64,000 nucleotides of DNA from a virus. Both the position numbers and the translations under genes were made by a program. Under the pieces are notes generated by a model, which saw only the letters and a list, made by a program, of their open reading frames with translations, was not told the origin of the DNA and did no database searches. The stretch spans positions 40,015-104,014 of the IMG/VR virus record IMGVR_UViG_3300018080_000009. One strand, 5' to 3'. Below, piece by piece: positions 27,514 through 49,775 of this stretch. Every line of letters starts with the position of its first letter. Within the stretch, counting starts at the first letter, position 1.

Positions 27514-27586
27514 GCCTCTGTAGCTCAGTTGGTAGAGCACCTGACTTGTAATCAGGGGACCGAGGGTTCGATTCCTTCCAGAGGCT
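27514..27586 (+). tRNA. tRNA-Thr(TGT)
   Basis: Acceptor GCCTCTG/CAGAGGC, anticodon arm CCTGA-CTTGTAA-TCAGG, T loop TTCGATT. Confidence 0.95.
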
Positions 27587-27773: not shown

Positions 27774-27844
27774 GGGACATTAGCCATCGGGGAAGGCACC
27801 AGATTGTCGATCTGGCAAGGTGAGTTCGAGTCTCATATGTCCCG
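27774..27844 (+). tRNA. tRNA-Asp(GTC)
   Basis: Acceptor GGGACAT/ATGTCCC, G73, CCAGA-TTGTCGA-TCTGG, T loop TTCGAGT. Confidence 0.88.
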
Positions 27845-27846
27845 CA

Positions 27847-27984: not shown

Positions 27985-28080
27985 CGACCTGTGACCAGTA
28001 ATTTAGGGGGTCTTTAACAGGGATCGAAACCTTGCAGGTGATGCAACCTGGGCATGTTCTAAAAAGGCCCACGCTTATAT

Positions 28081-28160
28081 GGACCGATAGCTCAGTCTGG
28101 CAGAGCACTCCCACCAGTTACACGCGGGAGAGGTCGTATGTTCAAATCGTACTCGGTCCA
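28081..28160 (+). tRNA. tRNA-Val(TAC)-like with enlarged 13-nt anticodon loop
   Basis: Acceptor GGACCGA/TCGGTCC, A73, normal D and T arms, CTCCC-ACCAGTTACACGC-GGGAG. Confidence 0.8.
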
Positions 28161-28173
28161 CTAGGGAGGAGTA

Positions 28174-28431
28174 ATGTTTACAGCATATCCTAAATGTAAA
28201 GATTGTGGGGGTCAGATGCATCCGATGGCTGGTCCTGGCAGTAATCCTATTTGTTATGATTGTGCTCGTAAGGAAAGAGAAAAGCTTGAGGAGGAAGTTA
28301 AGGAGATATTGAAGGCGCTTACGATAGAGAAGAGATTGTCTATTGTTGAGGCTACTTTGGTACGTAAGGCTGATGACTATTGGCTTTATGATTTTGTTCA
28401 GGGGTATCGTGCAGAAGATGATAACTCATAA
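28174..28431 (+). CDS. Zn-finger hypothetical protein
   Basis: CKDC...CYDC, GGAGGAG RBS. Confidence 0.65.
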   Translation: MFTAYPKCKDCGGQMHPMAGPGSNPICYDCARKEREKLEEEVKEILKALTIEKRLSIVEATLVRKADDYWLYDFVQGYRAEDDNS

Positions 28432-29233
28432 TGAATTAAAGAAATCTCTTAGGAATAAGTATCCTTGGTCTCATTGGATTTTGTTGAATGAGGTAAGGGA
28501 TGCTTCTGGGTATGAAGGTAATAGGTCAATAGATGCAGTGGCTTTTGGTCTTTATGCAAGCCGTGGGTATGAAGTTCATGCTTTTGAGTGCAAAGCTCAT
28601 CGTACAGATTGGTTGAGTGAACTTAGACAACCAGATAAAGCAGATGAATTTGCAACAATAGCCGATAAGTTTTGGATAGTAGCGAGTAAGGGAGTGGTGA
28701 AGAAAGAAGAATTGCCGAAGGGGTGGGGATTAATACTTGTATCTAGGAAGGGAGATGATTTTGTTACTCGAATAGTTGTCCAAGCTGAAATGAGTGAGCA
28801 AAGGGATTTGCCCAGACCATTTGTAGCCTCGATGTTAACTAAGCTTAGAAAGAAGATTGAGAAGTATCAAAGGGAATCCGTTTTAAAATCAGAGATCTAT
28901 GACCAGATTAAGGAAGCCCAAGAGCAAGGTAGAGAATGGGGTAAACGGTCTTCTGATTGGGATAAGAAAGATTATGATGTGCTCAAGAAAATAGTAGAAG
29001 ATTTCGAGGAAGCTAGTGGTATACGTTTGAATACTTTTAAAGGAGCCGATGTGATTGGGAAGGAAGTAGCTCTAGCCAGGTCTTTATTCAGTATTGGAAA
29101 GGATCAGGGATTAATTAATAGAGCCAAGGGTTTTGCAGGTAAGCTAAGAGGATTTGCGGATTCTATTGAGGAAAAAGCAGAGAAATTGTCCATTGTATGT
29201 GAAGAGATGACTAATACAGATGAAGAACTCTGA
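28418..29233 (+). CDS. MmcB-like PD-(D/E)XK nuclease with coiled-coil tail
   Basis: NEV, IDAVA, FECKAHRTDWLSEL..PDK, LPKGWGLI. Confidence 0.75.
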   Translation: MITHNELKKSLRNKYPWSHWILLNEVRDASGYEGNRSIDAVAFGLYASRGYEVHAFECKAHRTDWLSELRQPDKADEFATIADKFWIVASKGVVKKEELPKGWGLILVSRKGDDFVTRIVVQAEMSEQRDLPRPFVASMLTKLRKKIEKYQRESVLKSEIYDQIKEAQEQGREWGKRSSDWDKKDYDVLKKIVEDFEEASGIRLNTFKGADVIGKEVALARSLFSIGKDQGLINRAKGFAGKLRGFADSIEEKAEKLSIVCEEMTNTDEEL

Positions 29234-47163: not shown

Positions 47164-47512
47164 TGATCCCTCTTACAGGAAAATTGCCTCCAGATGGGAA
47201 CTAGTTGAGACAAGGGCAGACGGGTCTTCTTGGATAAATCGCAAGAAGAAGCTTTATGTCATTGGTTCAATTGCAGTTGAGCAAGATGGAAAGAGATGGT
47301 TGCACTTGTCGATGTCTCATCAGAAGAGAATTACGAATTATGAAGAGCTTACGTATCTAAAGAGACATTGGGCAGGAGATGACAGAAAATGTATAATGGT
47401 ACTTCCAGCTAAGAAAGAGCATGTGAATATCCATCCAAATGTACTGCATTTGTTCTGTTGTCTAGATGAAGACCCATTACCAGATTTTACTCGTGGATTG
47501 GGTATGATCTGA
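47163..47512 (+). pseudogene. conserved phage protein with apparent 1-nt frameshift near 47193
   Basis: MIPLTGKLPPD then frame change to WELVETRADG...WLHLSMSH...HVNIHPNVLHLF. Confidence 0.6.
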
Positions 47513-47540: not shown

Positions 47541-48188
47541 ATGAAAGTAAGACTTACATTGGTAGAAGAAATGCTGGGAACCTCGTGTTCGAATCCCGAG
47601 GTGCATGAGGAATTCATTGCCAGCAAGAGTGCAGACAAGGTGAAAATCAAAGAGGAGCTTGAAGCTCTTCCAGCCGAAGTGTTGATAGAGAAATCCTTGA
47701 CGATTTTTCCACGAGATGAAAATGGAAATCCATTCCTCTATGATTATCAGATCAGGGGATTCTTGAAGAATTTCCTAGGAACGAAGGTTGAGTTTGGACC
47801 ATTGGTGCTGAAGGTAGGTAAGAAGGATTATAAGTTTTCGAAATGGACCTACAAACGTCTTGTTGATAACTATGTCTTTGTCAAGCCGCGGAGGATCAAG
47901 TTGAACATGCCAGAAGGAAGTGAAGTTAGTTTCTGTACACGTCCACTAAGAGCTGAGACAATGAAGGGTGAGAGGGTGGCTTTAGCTACATCAGAAGCTG
48001 TCCCAGCAGGAACGACATTTGAATTCGAGATAAGGTGTCTTCAGCCAGAACTGTATGATTTGATGCCAGAAGCTCTAGACTACGGTGAATTCAATGGATT
48101 GCTTCAATGGAGGAATTCGGGAAAAGGTACCTTCACTTGGGAGGATCTAGATGAGCAAAAAGTCGAGGAAAGCAAGAAATCGGCGTAA
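47541..48188 (+). CDS. stand-alone Cas7/RAMP-fold (Csm3-like) protein
   Basis: MKVRLTLVEEMLGT, PFLYDYQIRGFLK (cf. P.IPGSSLKG.LR), EAVPAGTTFEFEI, G-rich loop GLLQWRNSGKGTF; no adjacent cas genes. Confidence 0.8.
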   Translation: MKVRLTLVEEMLGTSCSNPEVHEEFIASKSADKVKIKEELEALPAEVLIEKSLTIFPRDENGNPFLYDYQIRGFLKNFLGTKVEFGPLVLKVGKKDYKFSKWTYKRLVDNYVFVKPRRIKLNMPEGSEVSFCTRPLRAETMKGERVALATSEAVPAGTTFEFEIRCLQPELYDLMPEALDYGEFNGLLQWRNSGKGTFTWEDLDEQKVEESKKSA

Positions 48189-48321
48189 AAGAAGACAAGA
48201 AAAGGATTTTCTCAAGAATGGTTCCAAACCCAGACACAAATCGAAAAGTGGACGTACTGGAAAGATTCAAAGTACTAAGAACAAGTCCCTGAATGATAGA
48301 GCACAACGAAAAAAGAAGTAA
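48151..48321 (+). CDS. 56-aa Arg/Lys-rich peptide (not in ORF track)
   Basis: GGAGG RBS; MSKKSRKARNRRKRRQEK...RAQRKKK. Confidence 0.55.
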   Translation: MSKKSRKARNRRKRRQEKDFLKNGSKPRHKSKSGRTGKIQSTKNKSLNDRAQRKKK

Positions 48322-48322
48322 A

Positions 48323-48867
48323 AGAGAAGTTATGTGCAGTTCTGTAAGGGAACGGTGCTGAATCATCAAGTATGATTCCGTAATGGTAATGAAAGGAAGA
48401 GCATATCAACGTCTTGTATCGGAAGGGTACTGTTCAGCTTAGTTATGAAGTGTATAGGTACTGATGAGTCTTGTGTGATTTTGTAGGGGAAGAGTACAGA
48501 TGCGTATTTATGAGAGGGGTAACGTCCAGGTGTAGTTGAGCAGTTTGGAGTTATGGAGTGGCGCGGTAAAGTTGCGTTCTGGTATGGTCCTGTGAAGTCA
48601 TGTAAAGGATACGTATTGAACTGTTATATAGGGTCCAGATATGGTCTGGTATGGTGACGAGAATATCCGTAGAGGATGTGAGGCGTTTGGTAAAGTTATG
48701 TCACGTCAAGGAACTGAAAAGTCATGTTTGATTTAGTAGTGGCGTGGTCGGGTCTGGTGCTGGCATGTACGATGGGGTCTAGTGGAGGCGCTGTGTTATT
48801 CGGTAGTGAAGTGTCCCGTTGGGCACAGGAAGAGTGCTGCGTTGAAGTGTGAGAAAGGGACTTGTGG
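48323..48867 (+). repeat. non-coding 5-nt-periodic array (NGW-NN pentamers, DGG-NNN hexamers); putative guide-RNA array
   Basis: Manual parse tiles the interval with 91 pentamers (79 with G at position 2) and 15 DGG-initiated hexamers; no ORF of 60 aa or more spans it. Confidence 0.85.
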
Positions 48868-48969: not shown

Positions 48970-49019
48970 GGCATCTGTCTGTGGAGAGTCAGTAGGTTCG
49001 AATCCTACCAGATGCCCCA
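48970..49019 (+). ncRNA. minimal tRNA-His-like RNA (acceptor + T arm, G-1:C73, CCA)
   Basis: G-GCATCTG...GTAGG-TTCGAAT-CCTAC-CAGATGC-C-CCA; 14-nt linker TCTGTGGAGAGTCA contains GTG. Confidence 0.75.
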
Positions 49020-49037: not shown

Positions 49038-49775
49038 ATGAAATACAGTCCAAGGGATAGGTGTACAGAAGAAGAATTGGCAATAACCAGTATTGATAAT
49101 GATACTGTCTTTACTGATGCAGTAGTATCGAAAGTGCTTCCTAATGATGTGAAATTTGTAGATGGCTTTCATTTGTTTGTTGAAGATGCTGAAAAGTATG
49201 TTCAGCCAGATGATACGCTTCGATTATATGGCCAAGGTATTGGTCATGTTGTAAGAGGAGTGGCGGTAGTCAAAGAAAATGGGAAGATAGAAGTATTGAG
49301 ATATAAAACTCCTCTAGAGTCTGCCACAGAAGACTGTAAACGGTTTGAGGAAAACGATAGAAAGCGTGAAGAACAAGCTGAGAAGATACGTAAACAAGTT
49401 GATGTTGATCAGCCTCCCAAGTTTAAGTGTAAGGATCTAGATGCTTGGAAGACCTGGGTGAAGAATAATCTTGAGCCCTATGGTCGTGCAGTAATTGTGT
49501 ATGCTGAAAGATGGGCTGTACTGATGGAAAAGAAGATGGCTGAGGGTGCGACTCTAAAAGACATTGCCAAAGATACAAGTCACGAAGCAGACACAGATGG
49601 GATCACTGGATTCATGTATGGTGCAGCCATAGCTACACTTGTTGGAACGTGGGAACATGGAGAAGAGCTGAGAAAATGGCATAATCTAGATATGCAGATG
49701 GGAGACGAGGGTGAGAAAGCCAATGAAGAAGGTGGAGTATTGAATCCTGCTTGTTTGAGTATCAGCAGTTACTAA
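49038..49775 (+). CDS. conserved phage hypothetical protein
   Basis: GITGFMYGAA...WEHGEELRKWHN motif, AAGGAG RBS. Confidence 0.75.
   Translation: MKYSPRDRCTEEELAITSIDNDTVFTDAVVSKVLPNDVKFVDGFHLFVEDAEKYVQPDDTLRLYGQGIGHVVRGVAVVKENGKIEVLRYKTPLESATEDCKRFEENDRKREEQAEKIRKQVDVDQPPKFKCKDLDAWKTWVKNNLEPYGRAVIVYAERWAVLMEKKMAEGATLKDIAKDTSHEADTDGITGFMYGAAIATLVGTWEHGEELRKWHNLDMQMGDEGEKANEEGGVLNPACLSISSY

What the first reader, a model, noticed from the sequence alone, without database searches (positions are those of the whole stretch)
48323..48867. Grammar of the array: 91 pentamers in blocks of 3-8 separated by 15 DGG-NNN hexamers
Seen, e.g. from 48425: gggtac|tgt-tc agc-tt agt-ta tga-ag tgt-at|aggtac|tga-tg agt-ct tgt-gt gat-tt tgt-ag|gggaag; and from 48709: aggaac|tga-aa agt-ca tgt-tt gat-tt agt-ag tgg-cg tgg-tc ggg-tc|tggtgc. 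The interval tiles with no leftover bases. By hand, 79 of 91 pentamers have G at position 2, position 3 is mostly T/A, and positions 4-5 are free. Every 1-nt phase shift can be placed on a hexamer starting [A/G/T]GG. No block repeats another, so tandem-repeat and CRISPR finders would miss it. Inference: hexamers mark unit or processing boundaries and each block is one guide with about 6-16 informative nt. The parse is manual and some hexamer placements are ambiguous.
Basis: partly seen in the sequence, partly recalled or inferred. Interest (0 to 1): 0.88.

Follow-up and report, generated by a model that had tools for sequence, protein, structure and literature searches.

The report
Phage VIPR guide-RNA array, staggered type
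The five-base rhythm with regular one-base slips is real, but it is the guide-RNA array of a VIPR system, a CRISPR-related phage DNA silencer first described in 2026 preprints, so this is a clean new example of a known kind.

Summary
Observation confirmed in full. An independent dynamic-programming tiling of 48323-48867 gives 91 pentamers (79 with G at position 2) and 15 hexamers, all NGG. The G rhythm peaks at period 5.155, about 24 sd above dinucleotide shuffles, and occurs nowhere else in the 104-kb genome.

The upstream 215-aa gene (47541-48188) has a Cas7/Csm3-like RAMP fold. It belongs to a family of about 1000 unannotated proteins. About 150 of 164 related loci carry the same period-5.1-5.2 G array beside the gene.

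This matches VIPR (Vipr RAMP plus vrRNA pentamer repeats; bioRxiv 10.64898/2026.04.26.720920 and .720927). The preprints already list relaxed repeats (YNNNG, NNNNG; WGT/NN, TGH/NN) and "staggered" arrays offset by 1 nt.

New detail from 48 dereplicated arrays:
- Hexamers recur every 5-7 units (mode 31 nt) as statistically independent blocks.
- They read best as one linker base plus a canonical GG-(C/A)-A start unit, preceded by NGCAA.
- The periodic G changes about 5 times more slowly than the other positions.
- The protein residues that read the first G in the SUSP1 structure are replaced here, which fits the single-G repeat.

Expression, processing at hexamers and targets were not shown. The scan has reported this same grammar on many other genomes.

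The parts
47541..48188 (+). vipr-like gene: 215-aa lone RAMP (Cas7/Csm3-like) protein
   Evidence: No Pfam, PHROG or NCBIfam hit. AF2 model has pLDDT 79. The top 50 Foldseek PDB hits are all Csm3, type VII Cas7 or Cas7-11, with probability 1.0 and E from 3e-7. A profile hit to type VII Cas7 covers the G-loop region at E 2.6e-5. hhalign to SUSP1 Vipr is collinear over 170 columns at E 0.007. The family has 980 proteins with E<=1e-3.
48323..48867 (+). vrRNA-type array: 91 pentamers N-G-W-N-N and 15 NGG hexamers, 16 blocks
   Evidence: See for the rhythm and tiling. The RNA is no more structured than shuffles (z = -1.1). It holds no repeats of 12 nt or more and has no Rfam match.
47369..47397 (+). 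promoter-like site (TGGGCA-17-TATAAT) 145 nt upstream of the gene; possible start of a gene-plus-array transcript
   Evidence: Consensus scan, 10 of 12 matches. The number of such sites in the region is not above shuffles, so this is only a candidate.
48353..48358 (+). junction hexamer CGGTGC
48384..48389 (+). junction hexamer TGGTAA
48425..48430 (+). junction hexamer GGGTAC
48456..48461 (+). junction hexamer AGGTAC
48487..48492 (+). junction hexamer GGGAAG
48528..48533 (+). junction hexamer AGGTGT
48564..48569 (+). junction hexamer CGGTAA (placement ambiguous by one unit)
48585..48590 (+). junction hexamer TGGTCC (placement ambiguous by one unit)
48606..48611 (+). junction hexamer AGGATA
48652..48657 (+). 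junction hexamer TGGTGA (placement ambiguous by one unit)
48673..48678 (+). junction hexamer AGGATG
48709..48714 (+). junction hexamer AGGAAC
48755..48760 (+). junction hexamer TGGTGC (placement ambiguous within a run of GG units)
48786..48791 (+). junction hexamer AGGCGC
48827..48832 (+). junction hexamer AGGAAG
48970..49019 (+). tRNA-like minihelix (7-bp acceptor stem, T arm, CCA) about 100 nt after the array; possible 3' end or processing signal of the array transcript
   Evidence: Read directly. Its reverse strand gives a weak Rfam match to a tRNA-derived model. ARAGORN does not call it. A longer tRNA-like element with the same T loop and CCA follows the short array of relative L011.

Best explanation
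The interval is the guide-RNA (vrRNA) array of a VIPR system, and the 215-aa RAMP gene just upstream is its Vipr protein.

Mechanism, inferred by analogy with the solved SUSP1 complex:
- The array is transcribed on the + strand.
- One protomer binds each 5-nt unit. The periodic G (the G2 of GGY) and the following non-G base are held in protein pockets.
- The last two bases of each unit are left exposed to read double-stranded DNA at two of every three target bases. Binding silences genes of rival mobile elements.

This clade reads only one G. The two residues that recognise the first G in SUSP1 Vipr (H17 and D177) appear here as T14 and Q189. The residues for the second G and the pyrimidine (R138/W178/R179) are kept as R134/W190/R191.

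The hexamers are junctions between short, independently evolving units of about 6 repeats (mode 31 nt). Each is best read as one linker base followed by a full GG-(Y/A)-A start unit that resets the register by +1. This is the 'staggered' vrRNA architecture.

Status of each step:
- Shown here: the rhythm, its grammar, its link to the RAMP gene, and selection on the G.
- Inferred: transcription, protomer binding, cutting or filament breaks at junctions, and DNA targeting.
For: Rhythm and tiling are far beyond chance and unique in the genome.

Protein:
- RAMP fold.
- Sequence match to Cas7 over the G-loop.
- Collinear though weak profile match to SUSP1 Vipr, with the G-loop QWR aligned to DWR. 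I located the SUSP1 locus myself.

Co-occurrence. About 80 of 84 IMG/VR loci and 73 of 80 prokaryote-genome loci that encode a relative (42-61% identity) carry a G array of period 5.05-5.25 beside the gene and on the gene's strand, upstream, downstream or both. No other neighbouring gene is shared.

Grammar from 48 dereplicated arrays (23.7 kb):
- 81.5% pentamers N-G-(C55/A24/T17/G4)-N-N.
- 16% hexamers N-G-G-(C/A)-A-N.
- About 1% each of 4- and 7-mers.
- The unit before a hexamer is N-G-C-A-A.

Block structure:
- Hexamer gaps are peaked at 5-7 units.
- Gaps are mutually independent.

Evolution:
- In aligned relatives the periodic G and the GG change at 3%, other positions at 12-22%.
- The variable positions change at least as fast as 4-fold synonymous sites of the adjacent gene.
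- Conserved-to-divergent breakpoints are enriched at hexamers, 30% against 15%.

The RNA has no stable fold and no ribozymes or repeats.

Literature:
- VIPR definition, 1-nt skip rule, YNNNG/NNNNG repeats and staggered arrays.
- One protomer per repeat and the residues reading G1, G2 and Y3.
- WGT/NN and TGH/NN variants.
Against: - No expression or RNA-end data could be obtained.
- No accessory (vap) gene is conserved next to this family. The 56-aa basic ORF between gene and array has no relative in 84 loci.
- There is no per-unit 3' tail or pseudoknot as in type II.
- Sequence similarity to SUSP1 Vipr is weak (hhalign probability 5%). The T14/H17 and R134/R138 equivalences rest on a low-confidence alignment and on motif resemblance (T-R-P against Y-R-P).
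- Blocks are short, 4-9 units or 8-18 informative nt under the NN rule. The shortest cannot be specific.
- The breakpoint and substitution statistics use overlapping, non-independent pairs of loci.
- The legend of the 'staggered array' figure was read, but the figure itself was not available.
Confidence: 0.8

Rival explanations
1. It is a VIPR array, but the hexamers are not guide boundaries. The transcript works as a few long guides, or as one filament. The extra base is an in-guide register slip, for instance a strain relief or a break once per helical turn (SUSP1 binary filaments have six subunits per turn). Target reading would then continue across the slips.
For: - Blocks are too short for specificity under the NN rule. 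Four-unit blocks match the own genome perfectly by chance.
- The modal block of 6 units equals the six-subunit helical repeat reported for the binary complex.
- No processing signal such as a ribozyme or hairpin lies at the junctions.
Against: - Block lengths vary from 4 to 9 units and behave as independent draws.
- A conserved junction motif includes a fixed A at a supposed guide position.
- Divergence between relatives tends to start at hexamers.
- The preprint describes contiguous, 1-nt offset vrRNAs as separately processed species.
Confidence: 0.12
2. It is a decoy or sponge RNA rather than a guide. Only the periodic G would matter. The RNA would soak up Vipr protein (its own or a rival's), or another G-binding RNA-binding protein, in the manner of the solo vrRNAs of satellites.
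For: - Non-G positions drift at or above the synonymous rate, as expected if they carry no information.
- Solo vrRNAs that redirect a rival's Vipr are documented.
- The locus sits next to a Tad4-domain anti-defence gene.
Against: - The array is always linked to its own vipr gene, as in guide-bearing systems.
- Fast change of guide positions is also what the published systems show.
- Position 3 avoids G, and the junction motif is conserved. A plain G ladder would not require either.
Confidence: 0.05
3. It is a DNA-level element. A protein-binding ladder on double-stranded DNA would have sites every half helical turn (5.15 x 2 = 10.3 bp). Possible roles are a replication origin or a packaging or partition site near the recombination genes.
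For: - The mean period of 5.15 equals half a B-DNA turn.
- Relatives place the module among SSB, RecT, ERF and ATPase genes.
Against: - A helical lattice would force compensating long and short gaps. Successive gaps are uncorrelated (r = -0.04) and the variance of summed gaps grows linearly.
- The G is always on the gene's sense strand.
- The partner protein has an RNA-binding RAMP fold.
- SUSP1 arrays have period exactly 5.0.
Confidence: 0.02

Closest known systems
VIPR type II of Escherichia phage SUSP1 (Vipr + vap1 + four vrRNAs; bioRxiv 10.64898/2026.04.26.720920, structures in 10.64898/2026.04.26.720927)
   Same: - A lone small RAMP gene flanked by long non-coding arrays of 5-nt units on the gene strand.
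- Fixed G-containing positions alternate with fast-changing ones.
- The G-loop W and R that hold G2 and Y3 are conserved (ours W190, R191).
- No CRISPR repeats and no other cas genes.
   Different: - SUSP1 units are strict GGY/NN with period exactly 5.0. There are 9-16 per vrRNA, each followed by a roughly 40-nt pseudoknot tail, and a vap1 gene.
- Here only one G is fixed (N-G-W-N-N).
- Here the array is continuous, with a +1 slip about every 6 units, and has no tails.
- Here no conserved accessory gene is found.
- Here the G1-reading residues are replaced (D177 to Q189; H17 to T14, tentative).
- Protein identity is about 24% over a weak alignment.
VIPR 'staggered' vrRNA arrays and relaxed repeats YNNNG / NNNNG (same preprint, methods and legend of fig. 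S18); WGT/NN and TGH/NN clusters (bioRxiv 10.64898/2026.10.21.760802)
   Same: - Contiguous units whose registers are offset by 1 nt, with the end of one marking the start of the next.
- A single conserved G.
- The W-G-T flavour of this C-poor phage.
   Different: The preprints, as far as their text goes, give none of the following:
- block-length statistics;
- a junction motif;
- evolutionary rates;
- the residue changes that go with loss of the first G.

I could not see the figures, and could not assign this family to one of the seven published types.
Class 1 CRISPR backbones (Csm3/Cmr4/Cas7 filaments on crRNA); type IV-B Csf on non-CRISPR RNA (PMC7937560)
   Same: - RAMP fold with G-loop and thumb.
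- One protomer per short RNA segment, with bases flipped at a fixed step.
- Best structural matches in the PDB.
   Different: - CRISPR filaments step by 6 nt, do not read the flipped base, and need repeat-derived handles, Cas5/Cas6 and other subunits.
- Here the step is 5 nt with a sequence-specific G.
- Here there are no repeats of 12 nt or more and no other cas genes.

Membership tests
VIPR | Lone RAMP-fold Vipr protein (RRM core, G-loop, thumb, helical bundle) | tested here: met
   - Foldseek hits are Csm3/Cas7 only, probability 1.0.
- The G-loop GxGQWRNSGKGRF is invariant.
- Profile hit to Cas7 at E 2.6e-5.
- Weak collinear hhalign to SUSP1 Vipr.
- A helical insert at residues 17-51 is modelled at low confidence.
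VIPR | Non-coding array of tandem 5-nt units beside the gene, on its strand | tested here: met
   for the window. About 153 of 164 related loci also carry one.
VIPR | Fixed motif positions conserved, other positions hypervariable among relatives | tested here: met
   The periodic G changes at 3%, against 12-17.5% at other positions. Variable positions change at or above the 4-fold synonymous rate. Only one position is strongly fixed, not three.
VIPR | Canonical GGY/NN repeat | tested here: not met
   Position 1 is free (A24 C13 G15 T39 in the window). Position 3 is T/A here and C/A/T in the family. The pattern falls under the relaxed YNNNG/NNNNG and WGT/NN classes that the preprints accept.
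VIPR | vrRNA expressed and bound by Vipr | not testable with these tools
VIPR | Invariant structured 3' tail after each repeat tract (type II) | tested here: not met
   - The array is continuous.
- It has no conserved tail, ribozyme or stable fold.
- A single tRNA-like element follows the whole array.
VIPR | Accessory vap gene in the locus | tested here: not met
   No second gene is shared across 85 loci (ORFs of 70 aa or more on the gene strand). The 56-aa ORF is not conserved. Small or opposite-strand genes were not examined exhaustively.
VIPR | Natural targets under the 1-nt skip rule, none in the own genome | tested here: inconclusive
   - No self match above shuffles.
- No excess in a 1.7-Mb local set.
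- Four exact-pattern scans of IMG/VR gave 0 to 43 hits, which is chance level.
VIPR, staggered array architecture | Adjacent units contiguous and offset by 1 nt | tested here: met
   All 15 slips are +1 and sit on GG. Across the family, 16% of units are hexamers and about 1% each are 4- or 7-mers. Separate processing of the units was not tested.
CRISPR-Cas | Direct repeats of about 20-40 nt separated by spacers, with cas operon | tested here: not met
   There are no repeats of 12 nt or more. Neighbouring genes are unrelated to cas.
TRAP-type RNA target (considered early) | 9-11 (G/U)AG triplets with 2-3 nt spacers, bound by an 11-mer TRAP ring | tested here: not met
   The array has 106 units, the fixed base is a single G followed by a non-G, and the linked protein is a RAMP, not TRAP.

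The most novel reading that the evidence does not exclude
This very large, mostly gut-phage clade may run a VIPR code that differs from the characterised type II in three ways.
- Only one G is anchored, because the G1-reading residues are lost. That frees a third base per unit to take part in target reading.
- Guides are only about one helical turn long (about 6 protomers). They are delimited without tails by a GCAA-N-GG(C/A)A junction, which nucleates or stops filament growth or is cut by the RAMP itself.
- No vap partner is needed.
Probability: 0.2. Interest if true: 0.55.

Novelty: new member of a known kind. Interest (0 to 1): 0.3.

Why it matters
VIPR is a months-old discovery, and only type II has been worked out. 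This locus belongs to a clade with roughly a thousand members in gut Clostridia, Coriobacteriia and Bacteroidales phages and in environmental MAGs.

The clade combines the least specified repeat (a single G) with the most compact array layout: about 31-nt tail-less units. Three results here give concrete, testable handles on how Vipr filaments start, stop and read sequence:
- the block statistics;
- the junction motif;
- the residue swaps D177 to Q and H17 to T, which track loss of the first G.

They also bear on how short a noncontiguous guide can be. For the scan itself, the value is a firm reclassification: a striking grammar that is real but already explained.

Tried and rejected
- Fourier test at exactly period 5.0. 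Not significant. The slips move the peak to 5.155.
- Half-helical-turn DNA lattice. Rejected because gaps are uncorrelated and their variance grows linearly.
- TRAP-like or other ring-protein target. Rejected once the RAMP fold and the VIPR literature were in hand.
- Rfam. No family matches the array. No hammerheads or tRNAs lie beside arrays of 20-30 relatives.
- Structured RNA. The fold is no better than shuffles.
- Target searches:
  - Exact gapped 16-18-nt words of all family arrays under skip 0-3, and NNN variants, against 0.6 Mb of loci. No excess over shuffles except period-5 array-to-array matches.
  - 12-unit windows with up to 3 mismatches against 1.7 Mb. 17 hits against 15 in the control. 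The best hit was an A-rich low-complexity coincidence.
  - Own genome. None above shuffles.
  - IMG/VR scans of four window blocks gave 25, 43, 0 and 15 hits.
    - The 30-contig cluster on the ribonucleotide reductase NLCxEI motif has the skipped base at codon position 2. It is one chance match multiplied by an abundant gene family.
    - One in-frame, wobble-skipped 8/8 match lies in an HNH-domain gene of three related contigs. It is not above chance.
- Codon-likeness of the NN dinucleotides. r = 0.63 with codon positions 1-2, driven by A-richness. The stop-triplet depletion test was not diagnostic.
- The 56-aa basic ORF as an accessory protein. No relative in 84 loci.
- SUSP1 Vipr could not be folded here, because the tools refuse proteins known only from an annotated record. 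No structure-to-structure comparison with a true Vipr was therefore made.

Full report
**1. The observation**

The stretch 48323-48867 lies between a 215-aa ORF (47541-48188) and a 245-aa ORF (49038-49775). It holds no ORF of note.

Its G positions autocorrelate at lags 5, 10, 15/16, 21 and 26. The spectrum has one sharp peak at period 5.155 with power 7.9. The maximum over all periods in 500 dinucleotide-preserving shuffles averages 1.15 (sd 0.28, highest 2.85). In a sliding scan of the whole 104-kb genome, only this place exceeds the threshold.

A dynamic-programming tiling rewards nothing but G at the second position and penalises 6-mers.
- 91 pentamers, 79 of them with G2;
- 15 hexamers;
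- blocks of 3-8 pentamers, with no leftover base.

The tiling score is 86.5, against 57.1 +/- 2.3 for shuffles.

All 15 hexamers carry GG at positions 2-3, against 11 of 91 pentamers with G at position 3 (p = 1e-11). Two hexamers start with C in my parse, and five placements shift by one unit under a trained model. No repeat of 12 nt or more exists in the array.

**2. What it belongs to**

The upstream protein has no Pfam, PHROG or NCBIfam match. It does have 980 relatives in metagenomes.

An AF2 model built on 23 sequences has pLDDT 79. Its PDB matches are exclusively Csm3, type VII Cas7 and Cas7-11, at probability 1.0 and E from 3e-7. A sequence profile also reaches type VII Cas7 across the glycine-rich loop, at E 2.6e-5.

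I fetched loci that encode relatives at 42-61% identity. About 80 of 84 IMG/VR loci and 73 of 80 loci from prokaryote genomes carry a G rhythm of period 5.05-5.25 next to the gene. The prokaryote loci come mostly from gut Clostridia, Coriobacteriia and Bacteroidales MAGs, with a few environmental bacteria and archaea.
- The rhythm is always on the gene's strand.
- It lies upstream, downstream or on both sides.
- Arrays reach 1.8 kb.

No other gene is shared. Neighbours are often SSB, RecT, ERF or SMC-like ATPases, that is, the early recombination region.

**3. The literature**

A full-text search, and in the same turn a look-up of earlier scan notes, led to three 2026 preprints.

The first is bioRxiv 10.64898/2026.04.26.720920. 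It defines VIPR systems:
- a phage-borne ancestral RAMP (Vipr) plus vrRNAs made of GGY/NN pentamers;
- the NN pairs read double-stranded DNA with one target base skipped per unit;
- seven types;
- relaxed repeats NNNGG, YNNNG and NNNNG;

The second is 10.64898/2026.04.26.720927. It shows:
- one protomer per repeat in a right-handed filament of six subunits per turn;
- G1 read by H17 and D177;
- G2 read by R138 and W178;
- Y3 held by R179 and neighbouring residues of the next protomer.

The third is 10.64898/2026.10.21.760802. It lists non-canonical motifs, including WGT/NN and TGH/NN.

I located the SUSP1 locus in KT454805.2: vipr at 28474-29061 and vap1 at 28031-28471, both on the minus strand. 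Its arrays are strict GGT/NN with period 5.0 and structured tails.

A profile comparison of my family with SUSP1 Vipr is weak but collinear: E 0.007 over 170 columns. It aligns the G-loops: ours Q189-W190-R191 against D177-W178-R179. T14 falls opposite H17. The invariant T-R-P of our thumb (R134) resembles the Y-R-P that holds R138.
- The contacts for G2 and Y3 are therefore kept.
- Both contacts for G1 are lost.

This is what the array shows: one strongly fixed G, a following base that avoids G, and a free first position. The inference rests on a low-confidence alignment and needs a structure.

**4. The grammar, measured on 48 dereplicated arrays (23.7 kb)**

Unit composition:
- Pentamers are 81.5% of units: N-G-(C 55, A 24, T 17, G 4)-N-N.
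- Hexamers are 16%: N-G-G-(C 57/A 34)-A(70)-N.
- 4- and 7-mers are about 1% each.

In this C-poor phage, T stands where the family has C.

G is nearly excluded from pentamer position 3. The hexamer is therefore best read as one linker base plus a canonical G-G-(Y/A)-A-N unit in the downstream register. The unit before it is itself constrained (N-G96-C80-A59-A67), which gives a junction of about GCAA-N-GG(C/A)A.

Hexamer spacing:
- Gaps of 5, 6 and 7 units make up 504 of 681. The mode is 31 nt and the CV is 0.32, against about 0.9 for random placement.
- Successive gaps are uncorrelated (r = -0.04), and the variance of summed gaps grows linearly.

The array is thus a string of independent blocks. 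It is not a ladder locked to an outside period such as half a DNA turn, which I had considered because 2 x 5.15 = 10.3.

**5. Evolution**

Between related arrays, the periodic G and the junction GG differ at about 3%. The other positions differ at 12-22%, with position 1 the fastest. The variable positions change at least as fast as 4-fold degenerate sites of the adjacent gene, and faster in close pairs.

Transitions from conserved to divergent runs fall on a hexamer in 30% of cases, against 15% expected. These counts come from overlapping pairs of loci and are indicative only.

G is conserved. NN is variable. N1 and W3 are variable too.

**6. What I could not show**

The array RNA has no fold better than shuffles. 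No ribozymes or tRNAs punctuate arrays in relatives.

Target searches were negative or at chance level:
- local sets;
- the phage's own genome, which agrees with the preprint's finding of no self-targets;
- four exact-pattern scans of IMG/VR.

With 8-18 informative bases per block, exact-match scans of so large a collection cannot separate signal from noise. A mismatch-tolerant, control-calibrated search is needed.

No vap-like partner is conserved.

**7. Verdict**

The system is nevertheless known since April 2026. Its relaxed single-G repeats and staggered layout are mentioned in the preprints. This scan has already reported the same 5n+1 block grammar on many other genomes.

What this report adds:
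- quantitative grammar for a very large clade;
- the junction motif;
- evidence that blocks are independent;
- selection on the G;
- a residue-level rationale for the single-G repeat.

Classification: new member of a known kind. Interest: modest.

Noticed in passing
window 48970-49019 (+); L011 3903-3989 (+): A 50-nt tRNA-like minihelix lies about 100 nt after the array and just before the next gene's ribosome-binding site. It has a 7-bp acceptor stem, a perfect T arm with GGTTCGAATCC, and a CCA end. ARAGORN does not call it. A longer tRNA-like element with the same T loop and CCA sits in the same place after the short array of relative L011. It may set the 3' end of the array transcript through RNase P or RNase Z.
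   Followed up: partly
window 49038-49775 (+); L043 4973-5263: The gene after the array carries a Tad4 domain (type I Thoeris inhibitor, PF25186, E 1e-32) behind a 130-aa N-terminal extension. A 49%-identical Tad4-like stretch lies about 1 kb after the VIPR array of L043.
   Followed up: partly
window 48151-48321 (+): A 56-aa, extremely basic ORF (K/R-rich) overlaps the 3' end of the RAMP gene and stops 2 nt before the array. It has no relative in 84 related loci (tblastn E<=0.01) and no family match, so it may not be a gene.
   Followed up: yes
whole genome (G000, 104,014 bases): Strand composition is strongly skewed: G 26.8% against C 15.5% on the + strand throughout, with nearly all long ORFs on that strand. 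The C-poverty explains why this array uses G-T where relatives use G-C.
   Followed up: no
L013 1606-1836 (-): A FuFi-1 sRNA (RF02986, 64.7 bits, above the gathering score) lies about 1 kb upstream of a gut-phage VIPR locus.
   Followed up: no
L023 796-2115, L026 321-1650, L054 3371-5150: Some relatives carry arrays of 1.3-1.8 kb (about 250-350 units). Many gut-phage loci have arrays on both sides of the gene.
   Followed up: partly
L111-L153 (IMG/VR hits of one block pattern): Thirty marine-phage contigs share an invariant 23-nt stretch that encodes the ribonucleotide reductase active-site motif (NLCxEI-TLPTDPI). It matched one block's NNx pattern with the skipped base at codon position 2. 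I judge this a chance match multiplied by an abundant gene family.
   Followed up: yes
window 27514-27586 and 27774-27845 (+): The phage encodes tRNA-Thr(TGT) and tRNA-Asp(GTC).
   Followed up: no
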